Shown: positions 1,201 to 32,185, counted from the stretch's first letter. The stretch: DNA of 64,000 nucleotides from Antedon mediterranea (GCF_964355755.1 NC_092676.1:10889888-10953887), one strand, 5' to 3'. Translations and numbers: made by a program. The notes: generated by a model from the letters alone, not told the origin.

Positions 1201-2320
1201 GTTTCAACATTGTATACAAATATGGGGACGATGTCCAACAACGTGGACTTTCACATGAATAAATCCATTATTTACCCCTCCTATTTGGTGTCTCCAGGGA
1301 AAATTTACAGGATATGACCTTGCAGCAATATTGATTATTGAATCTTAGCTATATATCTACATAATCAGCCCATCAAACCTTTTGTGGCTTTTCACATAAA
1401 TAAACTTTCTGGGCATCCGGTCTAAGAGCGTCACTAAATATCTTTGGGGGCATGGCTATACTAAAGACTATGATATCGTATACTATATAGGGTAGTCTGC
1501 ACATTATTCTCTGATATGCCCTACAATAAAACCACATTGTTACAATGTCACATTAAATTATTAGTAAATAATTTAAATTAGGCTTTTAATACGGATACTG
1601 TATTACAAAAGGCAGATAACACATTTAATGTTATCTAATAAATACTATTGGCCATGAATGGCTAAATGATTGTATAGGCCTAATTTACTAATATGCTGAA
1701 AAAGCTGTATACTGTATGTACAATGGACTGTCTAAATTATTTTTCAAGGGAATATTGAATTAAATATTTATTCTAACTATCTAACATAGCCTTGCCTTAT
1801 GTAGAGATCAAATAATGTATACATTAATAATTAAATTTAATTAAATGAACCATTACATTTTTTGCTTTATTTAATACAAAAGTTAAAATGATGTTTGTAT
1901 ATCAGTTACGCTACTATAAATTATATTTTGCATCTGATTTGTGATTGTATTTGCATTTTTAACAGAATAATTTGTTTACCTTATATTATTATCGTTAGGG
2001 CCCTATCTAAGATGTTTACGTGGGACTACCTATTCATTACCACGCAAGCAGACCGCAGCAAAAAAATAGAATAAAATAGGCCTAACCTACTTTTTAATCT
2101 TATTTTTTTAGTCTCCTATCAAATTCATACGTATTTATAGGCAATTGACCAGATCTGAGTAAAATTACCTAAATTACCATGTGGTGTAAAATTACTGATT
2201 TCTTTCATAATATATTGGTATAATATTAATACAGTAGTTTAGTTGAATGCGACCTTTCATTTCAGGGCTTGCCCTGGACCCCGGCCTGAACCCTGGCCTG
2301 GACGCGTGTTTTTTTTTCCA

Positions 2321-2975
2321 CTCGCCCCAACCCATGTATCGTCATCCCGGTCCATGCCGTTTATAACGTAATTATAGCCCTATTATATCATGCGTTTATA
2401 TTGCATTTTTTATTTTAAAAAACGGTAAATTATAGTAACGTTTTAAAATGGCGTAAAATGACAGCTAGACGGCATGGACCGGGGCAAGTGGTATTTTTCT
2501 GAAACGATTGAACCATACTAGCCCCAACCCATGTATCGTCATCCCGGTCCATGCCGTTTATAATGTAATTATAGCCCTATAAATCATTCGGTTATATTGC
2601 ATTTTTTTTTTTAAAAAAACCTTAAATTGTAGTAACGTTTTAAAATGGCGTAAAATGACAGCTAGACGGCATGGACCGGGACAAGTGGTATTTTTCTGAA
2701 ATGACTAGACCCTACTCGCCTCAACTCACGTATCGTCATCCCGGTCCATGCCGTTTATAACGTAATTATAGCCCTATATATCATCCTGTTATATTGCATT
2801 TCTTATTTTAAAAAACGTTAAATTGTAGTAACGTTTTAAAATGGCGTAAAATTACAGTTAGACGGCATTGACCGGGACAAGTTGTATTTTTATGAAATGA
2901 CTGGACCCTACTCGCCCCAACCCATGTATCGTCATCCCGGTCCATGCCGTTTATAACGAAGTTATAGCCCTATAA
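2321..2975. repeat. Tandem repeat, ~197-bp unit, ~3.3 copies, each with an internal inverted repeat
   Basis: GCCCCAACCCATGTATCGTCATCCCGGTCCATGCCGT recurs near 2321, 2518, 2715 and 2911; each full unit also contains the reverse complement ACGGCATGGACCGGG. Confidence 0.9.
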
Positions 2976-3711
2976 ATCATAGCCCTAGTTAGTCTAAGCC
3001 GTAAGTATAAAATCATTTAATTAATATATTACACATATTGCGCCCCATACATGTGAATGTGAATGTCGAATAAGGATCCAACTTCACACAAAAAATTGAA
3101 TATCGAATAAGGAATAAGTAACCAACATCACGCCGCACAGTGGGCCAGAATTGGTTCAAAGTGTGCCAAAAGTCTATACGCATGAATAAATACTGATTAC
3201 GTTAATTTTTAAAGGATCTAAGGGGTTTTCAGACCCGTAGAATTTAATGGAAGTATTTTTAAATAGGTATGACGTAATACAAATGGTGTTTTCTGATAGG
3301 TTGAGACGAATGTCCTTGTAATTCTTAAGTCGATTAATATTACATTCACTATTGGAAGTGTAAGGGTTTCTATTACCCAGAGAAGCGTGGAATGAACATT
3401 TCCCTCTTCCTTGCTACACCCAATAAATCCAACTGGAACATTTTCTTAATATATTAGACGTCATAAAATACTAACTTTGATACGATGGCTTTAATTCTCA
3501 TTGCAATATCATGTGTGATTAATTTGCATCCATGATTGAAACGTACTTAAATTTTTTAAGGTCCACTTAAAGTTCAATGAAAACATCTTTTTAATGTACA
3601 GTATTATGTCATTACAAATACTGTTTTCTGATTGTGTGAATAATATTAATATTGAAAATAGGTTTTTATTGCATGTTACAAGTTAGGGTTTAAATGACTG
3701 AAATACATTAC

Positions 3712-6700
3712 TTATGTTGTCGACACGTTTTCCTTGCATGTTTTCGTCTATAGACTTTATTGTCTTTGTTCCTTGCTTCTTGAGCCTCTTCTCTCATCAT
3801 ACCTATCGGTAATACAGGACTCAAAATGATTGATGAACCATCAACTAGAAGAACATGTACACTCACTGGCATTTTATACCATGGATAGAGTTGTAAATAT
3901 AAAATATAACTCTGCTGTTTCTCGGCAGTAGTCCCAAAATTGGGGTATTGCTAAACTGCGCAAACACTGCGCAAACACTGCGCAAACAACAAAAAAAAGC
4001 TGCGCAAACCTCCTTCAAAACAATTATTATTGATTAGAACACAACTAGAACTATATAGGGAGACAATTTATGAGAAAAAAAATTTGAAATTCCTTTAAGT
4101 TTGCCTTTTTTTGGGTTAAAAACTTCAATTTTTGGGAAAATTACTGATTTCACAGCGCAAACAACAAAAAAAGCTGCGCAAACCTCCTTTAAATCAATTA
4201 ATATTGATTAAAACACAACTAGACCTATATAGGGAGACAATTTATGGGGAAAAAATTTAAAATTCCTTTAAGTTTGCCTTTTTTTGGGTGAAAAACTTCA
4301 ATTTTTGGGGAAATTACTGATTTCACAGCGCAAACCCCCCAAAAAAGCTGCGCAAACCTCCTTTAAATCAATTAATAGTGATTAGATAACAACTAGAACT
4401 ATATAAGGAGGCAATTTATGGGAAAACAAATTTGAAATTCCTTTAAGTTTGCCTTTTTTTGGGTGAAAAACTTCAATTTTTGGGGAAATTACTGATTTCA
4501 TAGCGCAAACCCCCCAAAAAAGCTGCGCAAACCTCCTTTAAATCAATTAATAGTGATTAGATAACAATTAGAACTATATAAGGAGGCAATTTATGGAAAA
4601 ACTAATTTGAAATTCCTTTAAGTTTGCCTTTTTTTGGGTGAAAAACTTCAATTTTTGGGAAAATTACTGATTTCACAGCGCAAACAACAAAAAAAGCTGC
4701 GCAAACCTCCTTTAAATCAATTAATATTGATTAGATAACAACTAGAACTATATAGGGAGACAATTTATGGGAAAAAGAATTTGAAATTCCTTTAAGTTTG
4801 CCTTTTTTTGGGTGAAAAACTTCAATTTTTGGGAAAATTACTGATTTCACAGCGCAAACAACGAAAAAAGATGCGCAAACCTCCTTCAAAACAATTAATA
4901 TTGATTAAAACACAACTAGACCTATATAGGGAGACAATTTATGAGGAAAAAAATTTGAAATTGCTGTAAGTTTCTTTTTTTTTTTGGGTTAAACACTTCA
5001 ATTTTTTTTGAAAAATTACAGATTTCACAGATTTAAAGGTTTGCGCATACCCCCCAAAAAGCTGCGCAAACCTCCTTCAAATCAATTAATATTGATTAGA
5101 TAACAACTAGAACTATATAGGGAGACAATTTATGAGGAAAAAAGATTGAAATTGCTGTAAGTTTGTCTTTTTTTTTTAAATTAAAAAATTTAAATTACAG
5201 ATTTCACAGATTTCAAGGTTTGCGTGGCATTGATTCCTTACTTTATTAAGAATTTCAGGGTCTGTCCTTACATATGATTGATTGTATTTAGAGTTCCTAT
5301 GTGGTGCAGTTACGTTTAACACTCCTCTGTACTCGTGAACAGCTACATATTTTCCATTTATTGTGTCATCAATGTAAGTAATTTTCCGTTCGTAATTGGT
5401 GGCACATTTCCTAGAATAATAGCAATGGACATTAATAGTTTTTAACCAAAAAAAAAGGCAAACTTAAAAGAATTTCAAATTTTTTCCCCATAAATTGTCT
5501 CCCTCAATTGTTCTAGTTGTGTTCTATCAATATTAATTGTTTTGAAGGAGGTTTGCACAGCTTTTTTTGTTCTTTGCGCTGTTAAATCAGTAATTGTCCC
5601 AAAAATTGAAGTTTTTCACCCAAAAAAAGGCAAACTTAAAGGAATTTCAAATTTGTTTTCCCATAAATTGTTTCCTTATATAGTTCTAGTTGTTATCTAA
5701 TCAATATTAATAGATTTAAAAGAGGTTTGCGCAGCTTTTTTGGGGGGTTTGCGCTGTGAAATCAGTAATTTCTCCAAAAATTGAAGTTTTTCACCCAAAA
5801 AAAAGCAAACTTAAAGGAATTTCAAATTTGTTTTCCCATAAATTGTCTCCCTATATACTGTAGTTCTAGTTGTTCAATATTAATTGATTTAAAGGAGGTT
5901 TGCGCAGCTTTTTTGGGGGGTTTGCGCTGTGAAATCAGTAATTTCCCCAAAAATTGAAGTTTTTCACCCAAAAAAAGGCAAACTTAAAGGAATTTCAAAT
6001 TTGTTTTCCCATAAATTGTCTCCCTATATAGTTCTAGTTTGTTATCTAATCAATATTAATTGATTTAAAGGAGGTTTGCGCAGCTTTTTTTGTTGTTTGC
6101 GCTGTGAAATCAGTAATTTTCCCAAAAATTGAAGTTTTTCACCCAAAAAAGAGCAAACTTAAAGGAATTTCAAATTTTTTTTCTCATAAATTGTCTCCCT
6201 ATATAGTTCTAGTTGTGTTCTATCAATATTAATTGTTTTGAAGGAGGTTTGCACAGCTTTCTTTGTTCTTTGCGCTGTTAAATCAGTAATTGTCCCAAAA
6301 ATTGAAGTTTTTCACCCAAAAAAAGGCAAACTTAAAGGAATTTCAAATTTTTTTTCTCATAAATTGTCTCCCTACAGGTATATAGTTCTAGTTGTGTTCT
6401 AATCAATAATAATTGTTTTGAAGGAGGTTTGCGCAGCTTTTTTTGGTGTTTGCGCAGTGTTTGCGCAGTGTTTGCGCAGTTTGCGCAGTTTAGCAATACC
6501 CCCAAAATTGTAAAGGGTCTAAACACGATTTGTATGATATTGCTACTAAAATCATATGGATCCTGTGTACTAGGTTTACATCCAACCCGCAAATTTCAGC
6601 GAAAGTCTCCTTTTCCTGGAAAGATATGCAAGCTGTGTTACCATCGTTTTCCTGAACCCTATTTAGGTTCATTTACTTTCAGTCATATTTCTTCTTTAAA

Positions 6701-6843
6701 TCGATCGGTTTTTTTTTCTCCATATCGGCAACAATAGCTTTTTCACTATCAGACAAAATACACAACTTTTTTATTCTGTACCCAATATGAATTAGCATTT
6801 CGAAGCACCTACTCCATTTGTGTAGTGGCAAGAGTCCTATAGC
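3712..6843 (-). pseudogene. Transib (RAG1-core-like) transposase, C-terminal half, disrupted and split by an insertion
   Basis: Minus strand reads IGLLPLHKWSRCFEMLIHIGYR (~6840-6775), then NDGNTA...FAEICGLDVNLVHRIHMILVAISYKSCLDPLQF, continuing across the 3943-6501 insertion as WDYCRETAELY / LQLYPWYKMPVSVHVLLVDGSSIILSPVLPIGMMREEAQEARNKDNKVYRRKHARKTCR. These match Transib motifs (GLSxLHxWIR, NDGNTARRFF, LYPWYxMPxxVH, SEEAQEARNK). Stops and frameshifts are present, including a 7-bp duplication near 3895-3908. Confidence 0.9.
3943..6501. mobile_element. Mutator-like (MULE) foldback element with inverted arrays of a ~174-bp unit
   Basis: Ends GGGTATTGCTAAACTGCGCAAAC / GTTTGCGCAGTTTAGCAATACCC; 9-bp TSD CCAAAATTG (3934-3942, 6502-6510); left array ~3980-5220 and right array ~5440-6430 face opposite ways. 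Confidence 0.85.
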
Positions 6844-7711
6844 TGTAGGCTTCTTCACTTAACATAACTTAACTTAACATACATCGCAGACTAGTTCAAT
6901 GTAGGTAATTAAACCAGCCGAATAAACAGCTTCAAAAGTTGTATTTTGATATGGAGTCCATGTTACGTGTACCTACACTTATGAATACTTATTCTCACAC
7001 TGGTAACATTCCCTTTTCCAATACAGACGCGTCATGGAAAGGTTTTCTCTTCGTCAAGTTTGCGCGATTGCGGTACATTAATGTGTCAATGAATGCATTT
7101 ATTTTAAAACGGCACGTATACGGACATTTAAATCGCTTCCTATATGCAATGTCGCAAATTGTCGCAGCCAAATTTGGTATTAACGTAAAGCTCAAGCTTT
7201 GCTCGAAATATTAATGTCAAAATTAGCGCATGAATCGACGCGAATCCAAACTATTTTAGTAGTTTTACTTAAAATATACGATTTTTTGGTATTTTTGGGC
7301 TATATTTGGTGCCTTTTAACCCCAAAATAAAGCAATAATGGAAATTTTAAATTTACTGCCTAATATGATTAATAACAGACAACAATTTCATGCAGTATCA
7401 AATCCGTTGCTTTTTTCTAGAAAAAATAACAGCGAATTTATCAAAACTGTTGTTTTTGCTCATTTTTTAAGTGAAATTATGTCATGGTTTATTCAAGTTT
7501 CCATGGTTACAAGACACTATTAAAATTTAAAAAATATAAAATTATTAGTGGATTTGTATAATTTAAGATGTCTTCTCCTAATTCAATATTAAAAAGTTTG
7601 GATTGTCACATTTACCATTTTGGACTTTTGGCACACTTTGAATTGATTCTGGCCCATGTGCGCCGGTGGGTGGAGCTCCACTTTCTATAGTCTATAGGCC
7701 TAGGCCGTATG

Positions 7712-10700
7712 TTCGCCGTGGTTAGGATTCCGGCACCGGAACTCAACTGCCCAGCGTTAAGGAATCCGACACGCTATTGCGCATGCCCAGATCGAGGTAA
7801 TCGGCGACTCTATACTTCAACAGCGATGGATCATTTCATAGCTACTAGCCTAGATGCCTATAATACGGGATTCACTAATCTAGGCTAGGGCTACCAGTTA
7901 GACGTGACCAGTGGGGCCTATTTATTTTGTAATTAAAAAGTGGTTGCTTCATTCATATATAAACTTCATATCATTATGAATTATATAATTACATGACTAG
8001 TTTATGATTTTTCATAACGCATTACAGGGCCGTAGCCAGGATCTGTCAAGGGGGGGTTCGGACACTAAGTATTTGGGTCACTGTCCCACTGTCACTGTGT
8101 TTCCCTTGTGGCCCGGGCAACAGCCTTAATTTCATACTAAATGTTGTTTCTGCCACTAAATTGAAATTGAGTTCCATTTCATCGTATACCATCCGGACAC
8201 GGAACTTGATAGGCTTAGTCATAAAGTAGTTACAGAGTTGCAGGGCCTTTTATCATTGTTGAATGTTTTGATATTAGCCTAATTGTTAAAACGACCTTCA
8301 CAACCAAAATATTTCTTTGTAATAAAATCTATTTTAAATGGAACGCTACAAAAATAATCCACTGCTTTATCAGAGCATGCATACCTAATAACCAGACAAG
8401 AACATGTCTTTATTACACTTTACTATCAATCTATTTTCATATCACGCAATCCATTTTTCAACAATACAGTAGTATAACAACATTTTGATTGAATAGTGAG
8501 GGATTAGTTACAGTTTGACTTTGGTAAACAATTGGTAATTTACTGAAAATCCAAAATGAACTTGTGTTATAATACAAAAAAAATTATTCAATCAAAGAAA
8601 CGCTCTACTACACATGAGAAATAGATGTCGGTCGATAAACTTCTGACGACGACTAAAACAACGACAATCAGCTAAATGTTAGTAATTTTATTTCATCTCT
8701 GGCTTGTTACATTTTTCATGACACATTACCGGACTTCCCCCTCCTCTCGCAATGAACGACAGTACAGATCCTCCCTATCTAGGCTCGTGTATGTAGCATA
8801 CTATTATTCACAAATTACGCACGCATAGCAGTGTTACTAGAACCATCACAGATTACCTCTAATGGATCAATCATTCACACATGATTTAAAAAATTCATCG
8901 ACAAACGAAATATAGCCTATATTCATTCCTTTTAAATATTAGGCATATTGCCAAGGCTAATAATCGATTTGTCCATAATTATTGCGTTTTGCCGGGGGTT
9001 TTCCATAATCTAAGGCCAATTTTTAGGCCAAATCATAATTGTGCGTATAGTGTTGTATTTCCGATGCGTGTAGTACCCTATTTATCTTCATTTCCGTACG
9101 TTCGTCGTAAATAGGCCGAGTTTCCGTAGTAATTTATAGACGTTCCAAAATTTGAACCGTGTTATACCGGTGACAGAGCAAAGTTTGCTTCTTTCTGCAA
9201 ATTTCCTACCCCATTATTTTCTTTGTTTTATTTGGAGTGTGGTTTAAAACAATACTTTTGTAAAGTTTATAGTGGATAAATGAAAATGAATTTTTGGAAA
9301 ATGTGGTTTTAACATCTGACTTTATTTAGCATTTTTAAATGAATTAAAATTCCAAATTATACAATTTAACCTTTTGCTCAATATATTTATAGCAACTGCT
9401 TCATATTTTTTGTACAACTTTTTAAAATTATTAATTGATAATTAATTTACATTAATTGAGTACAGTTATTAGAATGTATTACCGTACCAAAAGTACCTTA
9501 ATCGGAGACTTCCCCGCGACGTTTGCATTGAACGAAAAAAAATTTATCATAAATTTACGTGCGAGAGTACTATTTGCGGCCATCTAGGGGTGTCATTTAA
9601 CAATTTGCTTGCTCAAATACTCAGTGTCTACAGCCCTGGAGTCTTTGGGCAACCCTCTTAAAATAGTCCTGCGACCGCCCCTGATAGCTCTATCTATATT
9701 TATTTACAGCAATTTGTTGAGGAAACTAAATATATCAATGTAAATAGGTGGTATTGATACAGTTGAGTAGGCCTACGTATCGGCTGGTGGTCTAGAAAAA
9801 AATAATCGAATGCCATAGGCCTAATGTAAACTACAGTACATGATACCATAGATATTATAGTGTAATATATTAAATTCACTATAATCCTCTATGATGATGA
9901 TACACTATACTTCATAGCCACACATAAATATTGTAGGTAACCGCAGCGTTCCATTTTTTGATGTACGTCGGAAGGCTATATACTTTATGCATGCTGACTG
10001 CCAGTGATCGAAACAATTAATAGGTACGCGGTTGTCTAGCGGTGTTCTTTGTACGATTAGTTCGTGCCCAAGCTCGCGTCAATATCATGTTACATCCTGG
10101 GACCAAAAATTCGTATTATTTTTCAGGTGAAAATCGGCAACCAATGAGTTATTCACGAACGAGTTTACAAATTTTTCAATTTACAAACAACCTTTTGTAT
10201 TGTGGGGCACGTATTTGGAGGATTTTCAGAGATGAGGGTGTGGTGAGGTATTGTGGATGTCGGGGATAGGGGTTCGCAGTCGGTTAAGGGGGGGGGGGGG
10301 GTGTCGCTGTAAAGGGGGGTTCGCCCGAACCATAAAAACCCCCCTGGCTACGGGCCTGCATTATACTGTACGGTACATAACAACATGCAATCACAAGTTG
10401 ATTTGTTGACGGCAACAACCGCGTGGATGTGAAAAAACTGTTCGGGAAGTCAGGGTCGCAACGCTAAAAACAGCATTACGATTCTTAGATAGATACTGAT
10501 ACTTATTAATATCATTATGATTATTTTAACGCGTGGCGTAGTATTATTTTAATTATTAATTCATTCATGTATGGCATAGGCCAAGTTTCATCCATCGCTC
10601 TCTCGCTCGCGCAACGACTATCTAGGCTACAGTAAATCCCTATAACACTCCGACTCTCGGCGGTGGTGTGGTGTGTGTGGCACTATTAGCGCAAGCTATA

Positions 10701-10796
10701 ATTCACTTCCCAGAGCTCTGGGCATGCGCAATAGCGTGTCGGATTCCCTAACGGTGGGCAGTTGAGTTCCGGTGCCGGATTCCTAACCACGGCGTA
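7712..10796. mobile_element. Non-autonomous TIR element, ~80-bp TIRs, superfamily unassigned
   Basis: CGCCGTGGTTAGGATTCCGGCACCGGAACTCAACTGCCCA...GCGCATGCCCAGA at 7714-7790 is inverted at 10717-10794; flanking direct repeat GTATG(TT) at 7707 and 10797. Confidence 0.8.
8025..10358. mobile_element. hAT-like non-autonomous element with 5-bp TSD (hAT5-type), nested in 7712-10796
   Basis: TIRs CAGGGCCGTAGCCAGG / CCTGGCTACGGGCCTG; CATTA on both flanks (8020-8024, 10359-10363). Confidence 0.72.
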
Positions 10797-11229: not shown

Positions 11230-13740
11230 TTTCGTCATGCATTGCAGAGAACGAATAAAATCGGTCCTTGATATATTAATTAGTGAACAACAGAAAGGAT
11301 TTATTAATGGGAGATATATAGGCGAAAATACAAGACTTATGTATGATATTATTCAAATTTGTAAAAAGAAGAAAATTCCTGGTCTGCTTTTACTGATAGA
11401 CTTTGAAAAAGCGTTCGACTGCATTTCTCACACATTTGTTAACTGCGTTCTTAAACATTTTAACTTCGGACAATCCATTAAAAAATGGGTGAACGTACTA
11501 TATAAAGATGCAAAATCCTCAGTTCTCCGAATCATTCTTAATCGAAAGAGGATGTAGACAAGGGGATAGGTTCAGTCCCTACCTGTTTCTTCTTTGCGCA
11601 GAAATTTTATCCTCAATGATATCTGAAAATAAACAAATTAAAGGAATATCAATTGCAAATCATGAGTATCGATTATCTCAGTATGCGGACGACACTGTAT
11701 TGTTTCTTGACGGTAAAGAAAAGTCAATGCACGAAGCATTTAAGACTCTCGACGTATTTTACAAAATGTCCGGGCTAAAAGTGAATGTGAACAAAACAAA
11801 TGCTGTCTGGGTTGGCTCGTTTAAAGACCGAGGTGACTCAATGATGCGAAAACTATAATATAAAATGGATCAAACATGGAGAACCTTTTGAATCATTGGG
11901 TATTCGCTTCAGTACAAATTTAAATAAAATGATAGATTTGAACTATGAAGACGTATATAAATCAATAAAAAATACAATGAGACATTGGTCAAAAAGAAAC
12001 TTAACTGTTTTGTTGGGAAGAATCACGGTAGTTAAGTCTTTATTACTGTCCAAACTTACCTATATCCTTTCGACATTACCCGATCCCCCTGAAAATGTAA
12101 CAAAATCACTTAAGTCAGAACTATATCGTTTCATATGGAAAGGGGTGAATAGAATATCCAGAGATCAACTTATACAAGAAAATAAATTTGGAGGCTTACG
12201 AATGGTCGATATAAACGCATATATTCAATCGGTAAAAATCACGTGGGTTAGACGGTAAGTAACGTCCAATGAGACGGGATGGGCTCTTTTAGTTCCACTC
12301 GTGTTGAATATTCATAAAACTTGGCTCATAGAAGGCGGATCATCGAAATTAATCAAACTAGCGAAGGTTAAGCCTTACAATGCATTTTGGCTGAATGTAA
12401 TAAAGGCGTGGTGCGTATTTGTGAAACACAACACTCCTATGAGCACCGAATCGATATGTAGACAAACAGTCTGGATGAATGACAATATTAAAGTCGGCGG
12501 AGAAAGTATCTACAGTATTATAAAAACTGGAGCAATCATGGGGTGAATTTTATAAATGATTTAGTTGATAGACATGGAATAACTCAATTAAAACAACTTA
12601 GTAAACATCATAATCATCAACTTTCTTCAATATGAAGGCCTAATACATGCGGTCAGACAACATACGTCTTTATATCAAATTTCTCCAAAAGGAAAAATAA
12701 ATAGCCCACTACTACCTTTTAACCTTAGCGTAGTAATAAAAAATAAAAAAGGATCAAAGCTAATTTATAATCAACTCTAGAAAAAAACAATCGAAAGCTA
12801 AAATTAAGTGGGAGAAGGCATTGGATACTTTATATGTTGATAAAGAGTGGGAAATTATTAATACCATGTTTTTCTCACTTACTATGTCCACACCACAAAT
12901 CTGGTTTCAATATAAAATTGTGCATAGAATTTTAGGTAATAACTCCTTTTTGTATAAAATTGGGAAATTGACTCACCTTTATGTGCTTTATGTAAAGCAG
13001 AAACAGAAACCTTAATACATATTTTTGCACAATGCTGTAAAATTAAAATATTTTGGAGAAAGATTAAACAATGGTTGAAATCATATTTTAATATAAATGT
13101 AATTATCAACCCAGAATTATGCCTTTTTGGAGTTAGAAAAAAAACATTTAAAGCCCTAAATACTATTTTACTAATTTGTAGACACTACATATATAGCTGT
13201 AAAATGAGAAAAATTAAGCCTAATATTGCTTGATTCGTGAATGAGATTAAGTTACACGTTAGGCCTAAACAAGAAGAATTTATTTTGAAAACTAAAGGGG
13301 AGCATCATACTTATTTAAACAAATGGAGTCCTTTCTTGGAAAAACATGAACTTATTGACTGGTAACTTTGCATTAAAAATAAAAAAGGACTTAGTACTGT
13401 TTTTTATATAATGTTTTTTTAATCTTGAATTATTTATAGAACTTTTATCATCTGTTTATTTAGTAAGTAATAACTATTTATTTGAATAAGAAAGTTTTAT
13501 GTTTAATTAAATAATTTTTTTGTGGAAATATGCTAAAAAAAAAAAAAATGACAACAAATTATTTATAGACTTTGTTTTTAAGAGAAAAGAAAAAGTAGAC
13601 TTATATTTATTACATTATGAAATTATTTATATTTTGTTCTTAAGAGAAATGCATATTGTGTATTACTATTAATAAGAAAGTGTTATTATTTTAAGCTATT
13701 TTTTAAATTAAAATATAAAAGTGTTCAATAAAAAAAAAAT
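11230..13740 (+). mobile_element. 5'-truncated L1-clade (Tx1-like) LINE, degenerate RT/ORF2 plus 3' UTR
   Basis: Frameshifted ORFs 11237-13015 carry QKGFINGRYIGENTR, LLLIDFEKAFD, GCRQGD.FSPYLF, SQYADDT, GRITVVKSLLLSKL and GGLRMVD; A-rich tail after AATAAA near 13727. Confidence 0.9.
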
Positions 13741-13829: not shown

Positions 13830-16530
13830 ACCTTATTTAGACACGAAACTGATGTGCAGTACAATTCGTTCAATCAATATTGATTGTTTTTACACAAGTT
13901 CGTGATACTGTATTACAAAAAAAAAAAAATCAACACCATATAAATGCGACAGAAACAAAAAAAATTGAAATTGAAAAGAAACAAAATTACAGCAGAATCT
14001 CCTTCATCTGACACCTCTATTTATGGTACACCATACCGGTACTTCCCGTGTAAACGGAAACCCTTATCGAAGTGTATAATTTATGGGAATTCTACTGTAA
14101 TACATAATAAATCTTTTTGATTTGTATGTACACCATCGTAGATACCCTTATGTTTTACAATGCATTTTTCAGATACTTTTTAAACAACTTAACTGAATTT
14201 GGAAGGGTATCAACATTGAGACTATTCCATATAATTGCTCCACGATAAGACAGACTTCGTTTTTTTAAATCAGTTTTTGGCTTCGGGATGAATAGATGTG
14301 TATCACTGTGCCTTAGATTATAATTTATATCATTGTATGTAAATACATTATTTAGGTAAGGTGGGGCATTATCTGTCAAAACCTTATATATAACCATACA
14401 ACATTCATATCTATCTTGATAAAATAAAGGTGACCAATTAATTTGTCTTAGTGCCTCACTACTAGGTTTGTCCCATGTTAGACCACATACGATTCAAGCT
14501 GTTCTGTTTTGGATAGTTTGAACTCTTTTCATTAGAGTTTGACTACTATTTCCCCAAATTATGTTACAATAGCTCAAGTAAGGTATTACAATAGAGTTTG
14601 CAATATGTTTTAATATGTTTTGTGGAAAATAATAGCTACATCGTCTGAGCATACCCAATTCATTTAGAGCTTTACCTTGAATGTATTCAATCTGATTTTT
14701 CCATGATAAATGTTCGTCTATTATGATACCGAGATGTTTGCAATATCGAACGCGTGGTACAACATCGTTATCTATATTAACTGATCTATTTTTTTCTTTG
14801 GTGGTTGCCAATCGGTTTGTCGATCCGATCAACATGAACTCGGATTTAGAGACATTTAGACTCAATTTATTATTTTTTAGCCAATCGTCGATTTGTATAA
14901 GTTCTTCATTTATACTTTGGTATATTTCATTTTCATTTTTTGAAGAATAATAAATTATACAGGGAAAAATTTCATTTTAAAATTTTGTTTAGCAATATTG
15001 CGAATCAAACTGATTTTTTAGTCGAGAATCATAGTTTTCTATCGTATTTTTTGCTACACAATTGTAGAAATGTGTAGCAAGAAGGTTGTTTTGTATAGCT
15101 TTTTGCTATGCTACACTGGCGAAATTATTCCCTGTTATAGTATCGTCAGCATACATACTTATTTTACATTTGTTTGCAACTTTCGATAGGTCATTTATAT
15201 ATAAGAGGAAAGCAAGTGGGCCCACGATTGACCCCTGAGGCACTCCACATTGGATGTGTGTATAGTCAGACAATGTATTATTTACATTTGTGAATTGCTT
15301 TCGCTCAGACAGATAGCTCTCGAACCATTTTAAAACATATTTACTTAAACCATAAAGTCTCAATTTGCTTAATACTGTAGTATGTTATGGTTTACCGTAT
15401 CAAAGGCCTTTTTAAAATCTAGTAAACAGATTCCGACCAGCTTACCCTCGTCTATTGCACTATACCAGTCTTCCGTCACTTTTGTAAGTGCAGTAGATGT
15501 TGAGTATAATGGTCGAAAACCTGATTGATTTATACATAACAGATTATTATTATTCAAAAAACCATAAAGTTGATTAAAAACGACTCGTTCAATTATTTTT
15601 GAAAGTATAGGTAGGACGGAAATGGGACGATAATTATTAGGGTTAGTTTTTTCACCATTCTTAAAAATTGGCGTGACCTTTGCTATTTTCCACGTATTTG
15701 GGAATTTACATGTTGTGAAAGAGTGATTTATGATTCTTGTAATTGTTGGGGATATAATCGGGGCAGACAGTTTTAGAATGCCCGGTGGTAAGTTATCATG
15801 ACCAGTGGCTTTGTTTTTTGAAAGATTACTTAAGTATTTATATACAAATTCACATGTGATGTGTTCGAATTCAAAATTATTTTCGGTGAAAGCATCGATT
15901 TCATCATAATTTATATCATTTATCGGCTCATGTATTTGTGATGCAAGATTTGAACCTATATTTGAGAAAAATGTATTAATTTCATTTGCGATGTCCTTAG
16001 CTTTATAGAGGACATCGCCATTATCATTGCAAATTGTTTGAATAGTTTGAGTTTTCTTTTTTGACGATATAATATATTTTATGGTATCCCATGTTTTTTT
16101 TACATCCTTTTTATTTTCTTTTACACTTTCTTTAATAAAATTAGCTTTACTTTTACGTATTAATTTATTGCACATATTTCTATACTTTCTGTACCTTTTC
16201 CAGAGTGATTCATTTTTAGAATGTTTACATTCTCTTTTGAGTTTATCTCTTTCTCTCATATTTTCAATTACATCATCAGAGAGCCAAGAAGCTGTTTTTT
16301 TACGTACCCTGTGTTTTTTCCAAGGAGCATGTTTATCTAAAATGTTGGTTAGTGTAGTTTCGAGAAGTTTGGCACTCTGACTTACGTCGCCACTGGCGGT
16401 AATACCATTCCAATTTACCATTAATAAATCGTTTAAAAAACTGTCTTCATTACATTTTTTAAAGTTTCGTGTCATTTTATAATTATGATCCTGTTTAATA
16501 ATTTTATTTGTTTTATTGGAATCTTTATAA
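13830..16530 (-). mobile_element. 5'-truncated CR1/L2-group LINE, degenerate ORF2
   Basis: ORFs 15369-16475, 15106-15363, 14494-14865 and 14155-14397 carry NYRPISVLP, QSGFRP, DFKKAFDTVNH, GVPQGSIVGP, MYADDT and SLSYRGAIIWNSL. Confidence 0.92.
14960..15134. mobile_element. 175-bp MITE (CAGGG termini, 5-bp TSD) inserted just after the LINE YADD motif
   Basis: CAGGGAAAAATTTC / GAAATTATTCCCTG with TSD TTATA (14955-14959, 15135-15139). Removing it restores the frame YADDTIIYYSSKNE...WLKNNKLSLNVSK. Confidence 0.8.
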
Positions 16531-16967
16531 AAGGTAGCCGATCACTCCGGCCGCGCTTCACTCCGGCCGCCGTATCAGTTTAGCGCGATGTTATGCACTC
16601 CGGCCGCTATTCAATTCGACTTCCTGTGCAAAGGGACCGTTGGTATGGAGCGCCCATATCTACGTTTTCTATACTGTTCTTGGTGAATTTAAATGGAACT
16701 ACAGGGTAGTTGAATATTTATTAGCAACAACTTTACTTTTTTCATTAACAATAACATTCAAAGAAGTTGGAACTGCTTTTTCTTTCAAACTAAACTTAAC
16801 TTAACTTTTTCCTTTCAAATAATCAAATACCCGTCTAATTAATGCTTGAATAATAATATTTAATTTCTTTCTATGTACATTTTATAGCTTTACATTTATT
16901 AACATTAAAAATTAGTTAAAAACCTTATTTTTATAACACTTTATCTTGCCATACCCATACTTACTAA

Positions 16968-18885: not shown

Positions 18886-19063
18886 TTAAATTTTTTTTAC
18901 AACAGAGGGCGCTATGTAATGAAGACGTACAGTTACTGAGCTCCGTCAAAGCTAAAACTTATCGAACTCCCAAAAGTAAGTTAAAGGATGAAATAAACTG
19001 AACGTAAGTTTTAAACAGCTTCTACAATCAAATAAAAGTAAAATAAGAAGTCTATTGTAAAAA

Positions 19064-19879
19064 ATGAGTGCTACTAGAGCGAAATCTAAACAAATATCTG
19101 AAACTACTGAGGCAACGCCTATGCCACGTCAGCTTAAAGTTCCCGCGACTACTGACTTGAGGACTGACACGTCATCTTCTGAAATAAAGGCCCTGAGAAA
19201 AGATCTAAAAGAGATGTTTGTTGATATTAATAAAAGAATCGAAGATGGAATATCGTCGATCAAATCCAATCAACAAGTACTAATAGAAAGAATAACAAAA
19301 GTGGAAGAAACACAACGTATTATGGACCAGTCATTGGAATATTACACAACATCCACTACGGAAACCCAAGCGAGTGTAAGTAGATTAAATACACGTATTG
19401 ACAACATTGAAACAGAACTGAAGGAGAAAAATAAGCAAATTAGTAACCTAGAAGTGAATATTCATAGAATGGAAAGATATTCAAGAGGATTTAATTTACG
19501 ATTTGGAGGAATAAATGAAGATGAGAACGAAAATACACTAGATAAACTAAATAAACTTATAAGCGATAAACTACACCTGAAGGATATTAACATTGAAAAC
19601 GCCCATAGAACCGGTAAACAGACCAGAGGAGACCAAAAACCTAGGCAAATAATTGCTAAATTTATCTATAGGCCAGAACGAAACGAGGTTCTTAAGAAGG
19701 TGAAGTCACTGAAAAATAAAGATTTTTATGCAATGGAGGACCTTACAGCATCAGATGCCAAGAAGAAACGTGAGTACCGAGACATAATGTTGAAAGCATA
19801 CAATGAAGGAAGACATCCTGTATTTAGAAATGGATCATTATATATAGATGGGAGACTATACCGTGAACCTACAAAGTGA
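19064..19879 (+). CDS. LINE ORF1p (coiled coil + RRM-like + C-terminal domain; L1-type)
   Basis: Intact 271 aa; heptad-rich region followed by MERYSRGFNLRFGGINE, IENAHRTG, PRQIIAKF and EDLT motifs. Confidence 0.85.
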   Translation: MSATRAKSKQISETTEATPMPRQLKVPATTDLRTDTSSSEIKALRKDLKEMFVDINKRIEDGISSIKSNQQVLIERITKVEETQRIMDQSLEYYTTSTTETQASVSRLNTRIDNIETELKEKNKQISNLEVNIHRMERYSRGFNLRFGGINEDENENTLDKLNKLISDKLHLKDINIENAHRTGKQTRGDQKPRQIIAKFIYRPERNEVLKKVKSLKNKDFYAMEDLTASDAKKKREYRDIMLKAYNEGRHPVFRNGSLYIDGRLYREPTK

Positions 19880-20218
19880 CCAGACCACACTCTGTTAGTA
19901 AGCAACACACTTATTTAACATGAGATGGTATTTATGTAATTTGGACAAAATACTATCCATGTCTTGTTATTATACACAGCCCCACATTGCTGTGAACTGT
20001 TGCATACAGTGCATTCATATAAGTTGGGGTTGTTTATAAAATTGTATATAAATTTGTATTACTACATTCATTAATAAGGGGTCACGGTAAAATAAAAAAA
20101 AAATATGACGGGGAGCTAATGTACAGATATAGCAAATAAGGTTATATTTATTATCAAATATTTCTTTTGTCATTAGGCCCTATAATTAACTGATATTTAT
20201 TTATATTAACGAAATTAT

Positions 20219-23200
20219 ATGTTTTCAATTCTAAATATTGATAATTTTAATTATGAAGACGAAAATACAACCGCATTTAACTATAAGGAAAACTATTACT
20301 TTAGTATTGATACATTTAAATCCACGTTCAGTCAAACGTCAACTAATAGTTTTTCTATGTTTGCATTAAACTGTAGAAGTATTGTTAACAAATTTGAAGA
20401 ATTTAAAAATTATGTATCCTCTCTCGATTTTGAATTTAATGTAATAGGACTTACTGAAACTTGGCTTTCAAGCAAACATCACCTTGGTTTATATACACTT
20501 CCAAACTATACACCTATCTTTAAAAACAGAGAAACCCAGACAGGGGGATGTGTAGCATTGTACATACACTCAAATATATCATATCAAATAAGAAATGACT
20601 TGTCTGCTATGATAAACGAGGGAGAGTGCATTATAATTGAATTAAAAAATAATGATAAATCAATTATATGTGGAATAATCTACAGGCCCCCTAAAGCCCA
20701 TATTCCAACATTTAATAATCAACTTAGTGAATTAATGCACATGATAAACAATGAAAATAAAAAGGCATACCTTATGGGTGACTTTAACCTAGATCTACAA
20801 AAATATAACTGTGACAATAATGTTCAAACTCACGTAGACAACATGCTAACAGAATCTTTCATTCCACTAGTTAATAAACCCACCCGAATCACAAAAGATA
20901 CCGCAACAGTAATTGACAATATTTATACAAATTATCAGGAATTCCAAAATATTAACACAGGGATATTAGTTAACGACATATCTGACCACTTTGCAGTTTT
21001 CTGCATGGATGATTCAGAAAATTATTCATTACCACGATCAGAAAAATTTATAATAAAAAGAAGCTATACTGATCAACAAAAACGGCAATTTAGACTTGAA
21101 TTACAGGGCTATGATTGGCAATATGTAACTAGCATTGAAAATTCGAATGAATCATATAAATGTTTCTCAGATTCTTTAAAAACAATGATAGATAAGCATT
21201 TCCCACTAAAAAGAGTTAGGTTAAAAGTAGATACAATTAAATCCCCGTGGATAACATATGGAATTCAAAAATCTCTTTGTACCAAAAATAAATTATACAT
21301 CAAATATAAACAGAAACCAACAGATATAAATAAATCTAAATATAAGAAATATAAGAATAAGTTAACATCAATAATAAGAGAAAGGAAAACTACTTATTAC
21401 AAAATGAATTTGAAAAGCACAAGAGTAATATAAAGAAAACATGGGGTGTCATAAACTCATTATTAGGTAGGATGAAACATCAAGACATGCCTCAAAAAAT
21501 GAAAATCAACTCCCATCAACTTAATGACCCAACATCCATAGCGAATGCGTTTAACACATACTTTATAAATATAGGTGACCAAATGACAGGTGATGATAAC
21601 CGTAATAGTAACACCGAATATAAAATACAACATGACATTTTGAATTCAATGTTTTTTAGAGCTGTATCCGAGTCCGATATCATTAAATACATTAATGACT
21701 TAAATGTAAATAAGTCAAGTGGTTGTGATGACATAGGTACCATTTATATAAAAAATAACTCAGATATACTGGCTAAACCGTTATCTCATATAATCAATGT
21801 ATCCCTTCAATCGGGTGTATTTCCTTGTCAACTAAAAATTGCTAAAACAATTCCTGTGTATAAAAAAGGAGCAAGGGAGAACATAGAAAATTATAGACCA
21901 ATATCGATATTACCATGTATATCTAAGGTATTTGAAAGGGTCGTATATGACCAAACAATCGCTTTTTTTGTGTAAATATGATATGTTACATGAATCTCAA
22001 TATGGATTCAGGGCAGGTCATTCAACTAACCACGCCCTCCTACAAGTCCTTGATAAAATAACAACAGCCGTTGACAACAAGCAATTTATGATTGGCGTAT
22101 TTTTGGATTTATCCAAGGCGTTCGATTCGATAGATCATGAATTATTGCTCACAAAATTGCCCCATTATGGAATAAGAGGCGTGGTTCTTGATTGGTACCG
22201 AAGCTACCTTAGAGAAAGACAACAACTCGTACAAATTGGGAAGTGTCAGTCTGTAACCAAAATAATAAAACAAGGCGTTCCACAAGGGTCAATCCTTGGA
22301 CCCCTGCTGTTTTTGATTTTCATAAATGACATGTTTTCTGTAAGTAATGTCGTTGATTTAATAATGTTTGCAGATGATACGAATATGTTTTTACAACACA
22401 ATGATATCGTCACTGCCTTTACAATAATGACAAATGAACTAAATAAAATTGAGAAATGGTGTAAAACTAATAGATTAACTATTAATACAACCAAGACTAC
22501 GTATATGTTATTTAGTGGAAAGAATACCAACATTGACACATCCCAATTTGTACTTTCAATAAATAGAGTTTCAATAGACAGAGTACCATATACTAAATTT
22601 CTCGGTGTCGTCATTGATGAGAAACTGAACTTTAGACACCATACAAATGCAGTTTCTTGTAAAGCATCCTCAATAATTGGTGCCATGTGTCATATAAAAA
22701 AATTAGTATCTACTGAAGTGTTACTTACCATATACAAGACACTTATATTACCAGTGTTGACATATGGTATTATTGTATGGGGTGCGGGGAACAAAGACAA
22801 TTTGGATCGCCTTCTATTGCTTCAAAAAAAAGCTCTTAGGATCATTTGTAAGGTAGACTTTCATCATCCCTCTTCTCAGCTCTTTGTGAAAACGGGCACA
22901 TTTAATATATTTGATTTGTATAAAAACAGTGTTTTAAATTTTATGTTTAAATACCAAAAAGGACAACTTCCAAAATGTTTTAATTCTTTATTCAGTTTAT
23001 TTGATAATTATCATACATATAACACTCGAAATAAAGACAATTATTGTATAAAATTAAAATCAACTAATATGGGTCAGCAAAGTATAGCATATAGAGGACC
23101 TAAGCTATGGAATCAACTTATAAGAAATATAAGAGAGAGTGAAAATATATCAATATTTAAAAAACTATTACTAAATAAGTGCATTAATAGTTATAAAGAA

Positions 23201-23254
23201 ACAATATATCTATGCGAAAACAACATTTGTAAAATATGTCTAACTTTAACTTAA
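20219..23254 (+). pseudogene. LINE ORF2: APE endonuclease + reverse transcriptase, two single-base frameshifts
   Basis: NCRSI, GLTETWL, IYRPP, GDFN, IDNIY, SDHF; NYRPISILP, DLSKAFDSIDH, GVPQGSILGP, FADDT. Frameshifts near 21400 (A run) and 21963 (T run). Confidence 0.92.
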
Positions 23255-30909: not shown

Positions 30910-32185
30910 GGATTCAATTCACATTTATTTACTCATCGTTTATAAATACAGTTTCATAGCATAAATGATGGCAAGGATCCTGCATAGAGAAGTTTACACT
31001 TCTGTTTTCGCAGGACCCTTTTACATAAAAAACATAAAACAATAAACACAACATATTAGATACAAAATAAAAAAAAAAACATTTCCTATATACATTTTAG
31101 AGTTGTTCATCATCAAAAAGCGATACTGTTTTTCTAACATGATTTTGTATACATTTTGTCTTAAAAAAGAAGATATTCAGTTTATTACTTCCAGTACATG
31201 TGGATTCTTTCTATATATATTATAGCAAAAGTATGAATACATATAATATAAAACAGGCTATGTGTGTATACTCGCACACACCAACACAAATGCATAATAT
31301 ATGCATCTATATTCTATGAGTGAAGCATTTTAAGTTCTGTAATTCGATAAAATGTCTCTTTTTACATATTTTTTTAGTATTTTATAATTTTTGTTAACAA
31401 TATCTAAGTGATTTCTACAGAGCTCGTTCCATAGTTTCGGTCCGTGAATACTGATAAAATGTTGACCAGACGTTAACCTAGAGTATGGTTGTTTTACGCT
31501 ACAAATATTTCGAAGATTATGGGTAGTATTTTCGTTTCTTTTGAATATCATTTGGATTCGTCTGGGTAAAACATTGCTTTTAATCTGGGCCATGAAACCT
31601 AGGACGGTAACTCTGTTGATATCTTGTATGTTAAGTATATTTAATTGCTTAAACAGTAGCTCAGAATGTTGCCATGGCTTTTTAAATAAAATTATTCTAG
31701 CAGCCTTTTTCTGGAGTTTAAGAAGGGATTCTAGTGTACTATCATATGTACTGCCCCAAATAATGTTTCCATACTGAAGGTGCGGTAGAATTAATGTATT
31801 ATACAAATTTGTTAAAATATAATTAGGAAAAAAATGTCTAGTTTTTATCAATATTCCAATAGACCTAGCGGTTTTTTTTACTAATAAGCCTTATATGATT
31901 TTTCCAGCAAAGGTTCTCATTTATTACAACCCCAAGAAATGTTACATTTTTTTGTTGTTTTAAAGTAATGTTATTCATTTTCAATTCAATGTTGGTTGTA
32001 ATAATACGCCTTTGGGCAGTTTTAAAGAATACGTAATTTGTTTTGCTGGTGTTTAATAAAAGTTTATTAGCTTTGAACCACATATTAATTCTATCTAGTT
32101 CCACATTCATAGTGTTTGACAATGCGTTCAGGTTATTTCCACACTTGAATCCTGTTGTATCATCGGCAAAGCTAATTAATTCAAT
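30910..32185 (-). mobile_element. 3' fragment of a CR1/L2-group LINE
   Basis: FADDT near 32170, then WFKANKLLLNTSKT, FLGVVI, LYNTLILPHLQYGNIIWG and GPKLWN, followed by a 3' UTR. Confidence 0.88.

What the first reader, a model, noticed from the sequence alone, without database searches (positions are those of the whole stretch)
3136..7660. Transib whose end is a perfect RSS heptamer + 23-bp spacer + nonamer-like motif
Seen: the left end is CACAGTG, then 23 nt (GGCCAGAATTGGTTCAAAGTGTG), then CCAAAAGTC, which matches the nonamer ACAAAAACC at 6 of 9 positions. The other end has the same layout with one base missing in the heptamer region (CACATGG). The 5-bp GC-rich TSD is intact and the transposase keeps the catalytic-Glu motif EEAQEARNK. 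Known: Transib is the proposed ancestor of RAG1 and its TIRs resemble V(D)J RSSs. Inference: a family with roughly symmetric 23-RSS-like ends, relevant to RSS origin. No RAG2-like sequence is seen.
Basis: partly seen in the sequence, partly recalled or inferred. Interest (0 to 1): 0.72.

Follow-up and report, generated by a model that had tools for sequence, protein, structure and literature searches.

The report
Broken Transib transposon, ordinary RSS-like ends
This is a broken copy of a Transib jumping gene, with most of its enzyme gene deleted and another, likely Foldback-type, transposon inserted in it; its ends do resemble antibody-gene recombination signals, but that layout is the published norm for Transib elements, so the finding is ordinary.

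Summary
Window 3136-7660 is a Transib: 5-bp duplication CGCCG, 39-bp inverted ends, left end CACAGTG + 23 bp + CCAAAAGTC (6 of 9 nonamer matches). The catalytic-Glu remnant hits HzTransib at E=1.9e-13. Other copies carry the full heptamer at the right end, so the family is 23/23 symmetric.

57% of it is a nested Foldback/MULE-like insertion with a 9-bp duplication. About 420 codons, including both catalytic Asp, are deleted.

The layout is the published Transib default: a 38-bp consensus of heptamer, 23-bp spacer and A-rich nonamer, with most families RSS23-like at both ends (PMC1131882). Among 67 related loci, 41 candidate ends (21 types) had the perfect heptamer. Eight types reached 6 of 9 or better at 22-24 bp, and two whole elements repeat the layout at both ends. 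Relatives look like subgroup II Transib, the branch farther from RAG1. Two look-ups found no earlier scan report of this element.

The parts
3131..3135 (.). 5-bp target-site duplication CGCCG, left copy
3136..3174 (+). 39-bp terminal inverted repeat at the transposase's 3' side: heptamer 3136-3142, 23-bp spacer 3143-3165, nonamer-like CCAAAAGTC 3166-3174
   Evidence: other copies begin at the same base with other flanks
3701..3942 (-). C-terminal transposase remnant (about aa 573-652 of relative P0001), frameshifted twice; EEAQEARNK at 3765-3791
   Evidence: HzTransib 6pqn E=1.9e-13; 61-79% identity to the 14 best relatives
3934..3942 (.). 9-bp duplication CCAAAATTG made by the nested insertion, left copy
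3943..6501 (.). Nested 2559-bp Foldback/MULE-like element: ends GGGTATTGCTAAACTGCGCAAAC, 11-bp subrepeats, two 174-bp tandem arrays in opposite orientation (3976-5174, 6.8 copies; 5437-6459, 5.9 copies)
   Evidence: site without the insertion seen in contigs of all 4 runs laid (loose ends at 3942 in X1, X5, X6, X10)
5176..5463 (-). 95-aa stop-to-stop frame at the centre of the nested element; unidentified
   Evidence: no Pfam hit; none of 7 candidates at E<=0.001
6502..6510 (.). 9-bp duplication CCAAAATTG, right copy
6502..6859 (-). Middle transposase remnant (about aa 453-574 of P0001), with frameshifts and 2 stops in the main frame
   Evidence: tblastn E=5e-26, 47% identity to P0001
6860..6876 (-). 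Junction of the internal deletion of about 420 codons (about 1.27 kb, inferred from P0001 numbering)
   Evidence: contigs in all 4 runs leave the window's sequence at 6876 (records 3, 11, 19, 24)
6876..6961 (-). Likely first ~29 codons of the transposase (ATG at 6961), frameshifted
   Evidence: weak tblastn match to the N-termini of P0007 (E=0.002) and P0001 (E=0.036) in a 2-kb search space
7623..7660 (-). Terminal inverted repeat at the transposase's 5' side; heptamer one base short in this copy; nonamer-like motif 7623-7631
   Evidence: other copies end ...CACTGTG on +
7661..7665 (.). 5-bp target-site duplication CGCCG, right copy

Best explanation
This is a dead, internally deleted copy of a multi-copy Transib cut-and-paste transposon family with symmetric heptamer/23-bp/A-rich ends, into which a likely Foldback/MULE-type element inserted; the copy was likely moved by the family's own RAG1-related transposase. 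Shown: ends, 5-bp duplication, Transib remnants, deletion, nested element with 9-bp duplication, other copies with other flanks, with an intact right heptamer and without the insertion. Inferred from HzTransib and RAG biochemistry: a transposase dimer cuts at the CAC by nick-hairpin chemistry and inserts into a GC-rich 5-bp target. Inferred and untested: the GRP-bearing N-terminal region seen in full-length relatives reads the A-rich motif 23 bp inside. The RSS likeness is the shared inheritance of Transib ends in general, not a special property of this family.
For: HzTransib is the only PDB sequence hit by the remnant at E<=1. The profile of 10 relatives scores 579 bits on HzTransib, 41 on amphioxus RAG1L and 18-26 on RAG1 chains. 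A quick tree puts the remnant in a 12-row Transib clade, SH-aLRT 100. Contigs show other flanks at 3135 and 7656 and longer forms at 6876. PMC1131882: 38-bp consensus = CACAATG + 23 + AAAAAAATC, most families RSS23-like at both ends, 5-bp GC-rich targets. L006 and L042 are whole elements with CACAGTG + 23 + 6/9 at both ends; L042 has an exact duplication. 8 of 21 perfect-heptamer end types reach 6/9 or better at 22-24 bp.
Against: Only 4 of 21 end types reach 6/9 at exactly 23 bp, so this end is in the better-matching part of the range. No genome was held, so there is no full family consensus, copy number or autonomous copy. The tree has no RAG1, RAG1L or subgroup I rows and is the quick version. 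Subgroup II placement rests on relatives, because the diagnostic region is deleted here. The nested element has no identified transposase. Most of the 41 comparison ends lack a partner end or duplication, so some may be chance sites or belong to neighbouring elements.
Confidence: 0.92

Rival explanations
1. This family is unusually close to the RSS ancestor: its ends are special near-RSS23 relics and its enzyme lies near RAG1.
For: Perfect heptamer, exact 23-bp spacer, nonamer positions 5 and 6 matched. A GRP motif is present in 7 of 10 aligned relatives (P0023 has GRK, two rows lack the N-terminus). The nearest named protein is from a sea urchin, Lytechinus pictus.
Against: Same or better ends in distant Transibs: L010 and L011 7/9 at 23 bp, L050 8/9 at 22 bp, and the same nonamer-like motif at 23 bp in L045/L060/L065. 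Relatives have no CCGHC tail (0 of 10) and a CxxC-to-LH span of 33-38 aa, colinear with HzTransib. PMC9435367 says the GRP region occurs in both subgroups and that subgroup I, with asymmetric ends, is nearer RAG1L. PMC10462144 derives RSSs from asymmetric RAGL-A ends.
Confidence: 0.05
2. The nonamer likeness is incidental: only the heptamer-proximal bases matter and the A-tract at 33-36 is a generic minor-groove feature.
For: HzTransib ends have little or no nonamer similarity (PMC4840297). A random window position matches 6/9 with probability 0.022, and a 7/9 case occurs elsewhere in this window. 13 of 21 end types stay under 6/9 at 22-24 bp.
Against: Among the 21 end types, A at positions 33 and 35 is kept in 76% and 81% while mid-spacer positions are mostly 33-67%. 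The inverted repeat stops right after the motif. PMC1131882 reports the same second conserved block. This rival is compatible with the best explanation's classification and differs only on mechanism.
Confidence: 0.25
3. The 4.5-kb unit is a chance juxtaposition or an assembly artefact.
For: No single contig spans the whole element; the 174-bp arrays could be mis-sized in an assembly.
Against: Paired ends, exact 5-bp and 9-bp duplications, and transposase pieces that continue in order across the insertion. The deletion junction is bridged by contigs from two studies (records 2 and 18).
Confidence: 0.02

Closest known systems
Transib families with symmetric RSS23-like ends (Kapitonov & Jurka 2005, PMC1131882; subgroup II of Tao et al. 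2022, PMC9435367)
   Same: 38-39-bp ends, CAC-starting heptamer, 23-bp spacer, A-rich second block, 5-bp GC-rich duplication, single transposase gene, estimated intact size about 3.2 kb (1957 bp + about 1.27 kb)
   Different: The heptamer is CACAGTG rather than the 2005 consensus CACAATG, but CACAGTG is printed for TransibN1_AG's 3' end and JsiTransib_2954. This family could not be matched to a named Repbase/Dfam entry: no such library was available.
HzTransib (PDB 6pqn)
   Same: Best structural-database match; colinear with relative P0001 over aa 195-683, E=6.8e-104
   Different: HzTransib ends lack a clear nonamer, it lacks most of the nonamer-binding region, and it hardly transposes 23/23 RSS substrates (PMC4840297). 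Relatives here have a longer N-terminus with GRP.
Kodama/Hopper, the deletion derivative of Transib Nozomi (bioRxiv 10.64898/2026.08.26.747230)
   Same: Central deletion of similar size (1,380 bp there, about 1,270 bp here) leaving both 37-39-bp ends
   Different: Kodama is shown to amplify as a subfamily. Here the deleted junction was seen in 2 of 4 runs only, which may be one locus in two samples.
RAGL transposons (ProtoRAG, PflRAGL-A, TransibSU) and vertebrate RSS
   Same: Heptamer identical to the RSS consensus; distant protein homology (profile E=7.6e-10 to amphioxus RAG1L)
   Different: No RAG2-like gene, no CCGHC tail in relatives, no 12/23 asymmetry
Foldback/Mutator-like elements such as Tm1 (PMC3169594), for the nested insertion
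   Same: Long internally repetitive inverted arms, 9-bp duplication
   Different: Repeat unit 174 bp rather than about 14 bp; no transposase identified

Membership tests
Transib superfamily | Transib-type DDE transposase | tested here: met
   Remnant hits HzTransib E=1.9e-13; nearest full-length relative P0001 (71% over the fragment) hits it at 352 bits. In this copy only the Glu region survives.
Transib superfamily | 5-bp GC-rich target-site duplication | tested here: met
   CGCCG on both sides
Transib superfamily | About 38-bp ends starting CAC with an A-rich block after 23 bp | tested here: met
   against PMC1131882
Transib superfamily | Dispersed copies with the same ends and other flanks | tested here: met
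   Loose ends at 3134-3137 and 7656 in contigs of the runs laid; tables were cut, no copy number
Autonomous Transib | Intact ~700-aa reading frame with D, D and E | tested here: not met
   About aa 30-452 absent; frameshifts, stops, nested insertion
Transib subgroup II (Tao 2022) | No alpha11-alpha12 region in ZnB | tested here: inconclusive
   Deleted in this copy. In 10 of 10 relatives CxxC-to-LH spans 33-38 aa and P0001 is colinear with HzTransib there. That this span holds alpha11-alpha12 is recalled; the structure paper was not held.
Transib subgroup I / RAG1L | CTT1 (CX2CX3GHX4C) C-terminal tail | tested here: not met
   0 of 10 relatives; the tail is degraded in this copy
Transib subgroup I / RSS pair | Asymmetric (12/23-type) ends | tested here: not met
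   Both ends have the 23-bp layout once the single missing base is allowed for
RAGL transposon | RAG2-like gene between the ends | tested here: not met
   Longest frames 124 and 95 aa; an autonomous copy was not seen
Functional 23RSS | Passes an RSS information-content score or is cut by RAG1/2 | not testable with these tools
   No model parameters on hand; bench assay needed
Foldback/MULE (nested element) | 9-bp duplication and long internally repetitive inverted arms | tested here: met
   against PMC3169594
Foldback/MULE (nested element) | MULE transposase | tested here: inconclusive
   Central 95-aa frame had no hit

The most novel reading that the evidence does not exclude
The family's full-length transposase, from a clade with a GRP-bearing N-terminal region, reads the A-rich motif at 23 bp on both ends and transposes a natural 23/23 pair efficiently without RAG2. 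HzTransib cannot do this on RSS substrates, so the clade would let one test directly whether nonamer reading at 23 bp predates RAG2 and the 12/23 rule, best alongside the 12/22 asymmetric intact element L017.
Probability: 0.3. Interest if true: 0.45.

Novelty: new member of a known kind. Interest (0 to 1): 0.14.

Why it matters
As it stands, little: it adds one decayed copy to a superfamily whose RSS-like ends were described in 2005. Its modest value is as a pointer to a Transib clade with full-length proteins (P0001, P0006, P0007, P0009, P0011) that keep the GRP region and, for this family, 23/23 ends. Such an enzyme could test end recognition that the one well-studied Transib, HzTransib, cannot.

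Tried and rejected
Whole-genome copy collection: no genome held; contigs of 4 of the 11 listed runs were used instead. No RNA holder on record; X5 is only guessed to be RNA, so nothing is said on expression. Transib relatives in viral contigs and in prokaryotic genomes: none of 43 and none of 40 pattern hits confirmed. Pfam: no meaningful family for 5 window frames or for 3 relatives plus the nested frame. Rfam on 2000-9000: 0 matches. Ends of the closest loci L001, L019, L025: not found, contigs stop short. Nested frame: unidentified; my impression that it resembles a MULE fragment is recalled and untested. Careful tree did not finish; the quick tree kept 30 of 67 loci and 17 of 24 proteins (rows covering at least 140 aa of the region) and has no RAG1 row. 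Contig depth was not used as copy number. The host was not determined: the nearest named protein is from a sea urchin, but PMC9435367 reports heavy horizontal transfer of Transibs. Earlier scan note e1-7639685 (fungal MITEs) has no bearing.

Full report
Observation. The element runs 3136-7660 between two copies of CGCCG. The left end is CACAGTG, 23 nt, CCAAAAGTC; the right end read inward lacks one base of the heptamer and has the same second motif at 7623-7631. The ends align over 39 bp (35 identical, E=4.6e-8). A first-order Markov model expects 0.05 such heptamer+23+6/9 sites per 64 kb. The window holds two. The second, at 14310 on the minus strand, has a better nonamer (7/9), no partner end, and sits in a reading stretch that I take from recalled motifs to be the end of a LINE gene. 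So the feature at 3136 is real because of its partner end and duplication; the RSS-like pattern alone proves little.

Anatomy. The 4525-bp span is two elements. Bases 3943-6501 are a nested insertion with its own inverted ends, an exact 9-bp duplication and two opposed arrays of a 174-bp unit. That matches the Foldback/Mutator description in PMC3169594 (passages seen); its central 95-aa frame found no relative. Contigs in all 4 runs laid leave the window at 3942 and continue with the sequence found right of the insertion, so other Transib copies lack it. The remaining 1957 bp hold a minus-strand transposase wreck: a likely start at 6961 and about 29 codons, a jump to about aa 453 of relative P0001, then aa 453-652 with frameshifts and stops, split by the insertion. 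The missing ~420 codons include the GRP region and both catalytic Asp motifs seen in relatives. Contigs in all 4 runs diverge from the window at 6876 (records 3, 11, 19, 24); the 20 loose letters listed for X10 continue the N-terminal frame by my reading, so longer forms exist. Two contigs (X1, X5; one organism code, two studies) bridge the deleted junction, which may be one locus or a small subfamily. Kodama is the published parallel (bioRxiv 10.64898/2026.08.26.747230, passages seen).

Family ends. Loose ends at 7656 begin CTGTG in 7 contigs of X1 and 3 of X5, and CTGTA in the 2-contig consensus of X10; single X6 and X10 contigs also end in the full heptamer. No difference inside either 39-bp end appears among the rows shown, but 53 rows were hidden in each table, so conservation of the second motif is only partly tested. 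Two X10 contigs match the left end with 4 and 5 differences.

Protein placement. The 77-aa remnant hits only HzTransib in the PDB and 24 of 31 candidate proteins at E<=1e-8, the best 11 at 70-79% identity, including one from Lytechinus pictus. A profile of 10 relatives scores 579 bits on HzTransib, 41 on amphioxus RAG1L and 18-26 on RAG1. A quick tree of 48 rows puts the remnant in a 12-row clade with these relatives (SH-aLRT 100; no RAG rows). PMC9435367 (whole text read) splits Transib into subgroup I (asymmetric ends, alpha11-alpha12, CTT1; nearer RAG1L) and subgroup II. The 10 relatives lack a CCGHC tail and have a short CxxC-to-LH span, colinear with HzTransib, which points to subgroup II. 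The location of alpha11-alpha12 in that span is recalled.

Is the end unusual? No. PMC1131882 (passages and part 1 of 3 of Fig. S4 seen; Fig. 4 and the .doc tables not visible) gives the 38-bp consensus of 21 families as CACAATG, 23-bp spacer, AAAAAAATC, and says most families are RSS23-like at both ends. PMC8355894 (passages) repeats this. The exact heptamer CACAGTG is printed for TransibN1_AG and JsiTransib_2954 (2 supplement passages). As an independent check I fetched 67 Transib loci from metagenome contigs and called ends by CAC-NNN-G-[GT]-[GT] pointing at the gene within 1800 bp, without using the nonamer. This gave 117 candidates in 49 of 67 loci, 41 of them CACAGTG, against at most 3 of 74 in the wrong orientation. 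The 41 fall into 21 types; 4 reach 6/9 at exactly 23 bp, 8 at 22-24 bp, 13 do not. L006 and L042 are whole elements with this layout at both ends; L010 and L011 score 7/9, L050 8/9; L045, L060 and L065 carry the same CCAAAAGTC at 23 bp. Most of these ends are unpaired, so the counts are approximate. The window's end is a good but unremarkable example.

Mechanism. By analogy with HzTransib (PMC4840297, passages) the family transposase would cut at the CAC by nick-hairpin chemistry and insert with a 5-bp GC-rich duplication; this copy cannot make the enzyme, and the damaged right heptamer may hinder movement in trans (inferred). Whether the A-rich block is read by the GRP region as RAG1 reads the nonamer is untested. 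It is plausible, since A at positions 33 and 35 is kept in 76% and 81% of end types and GRP occurs in 7 of 10 relatives. HzTransib lacks most of that region and barely uses 23/23 RSS pairs, which is the one gap this clade could fill.

Relevance to RSS origin. PMC10462144 (passages) traces RSSs to asymmetric RAGL-A ends, and the rival 'Transib seed' idea also needs 12/23 asymmetry. PMC4411706 (passages) concerns RAG1+RAG2 elements. A symmetric, RAG2-less, subgroup II-like element informs none of these. I make no claim that this family is absent from print: the paper searches cannot match a family by sequence, and no repeat library was available.

Verdict: observation confirmed, interpretation partly supported, a new member of a known kind, interest 0.14.

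Noticed in passing
L017:13-4624: Transib with an open 686-codon frame (GRP motif, DDE motifs) and asymmetric ends: CACAGTG + 12 bp + CCAAAATTA at the 5' end, CACAGTG + 22 bp + CCAAAAATA at the 3' end. This 12/23-like type is known (PMC1131882 Fig. 4C legend) but is closer to the RSS question than the window's element. Flanking 5-mers differ (TGTTG/CATTG), perhaps a collapsed contig.
   Followed up: partly
window 3943-6501: Foldback/MULE-like insertion with 174-bp tandem arrays and a 9-bp duplication; mover unidentified.
   Followed up: partly
window 14272-14310 (-): RSS23 look-alike (perfect heptamer, 23 bp, 7/9 nonamer) in a reading stretch just downstream of the LINE-like frame 14494-14976; likely chance, used as a control.
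   Followed up: yes
window 7714-7790: Start of a very abundant repeat: many contigs begin at 7712-7716 with unrelated flanks in all 4 runs; a 96% copy lies at 10717-10794; no Rfam match.
   Followed up: partly
window 3030-3135 and 2320-2980: The left flank is itself repetitive in the runs laid, next to a 197-bp tandem array; the Transib likely inserted into another repeat.
   Followed up: no
window 11845-12258, 14494-16541, 19061-23254, 31330-31890: Several LINE-like frames (endonuclease and reverse-transcriptase motifs, recognised from memory); 19061-23254 looks near full length with frameshifts.
   Followed up: no
L011, L028, L039, L040, L042, L054, L057, L061-L063: Ends whose first 16 bases equal those of the window's left end, although their transposases are only about 34-51% identical to P0001 where matched.
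   Followed up: partly
L047: Two different Transib ends, 881 and 317 bp upstream of the match, suggesting nested Transibs.
   Followed up: no
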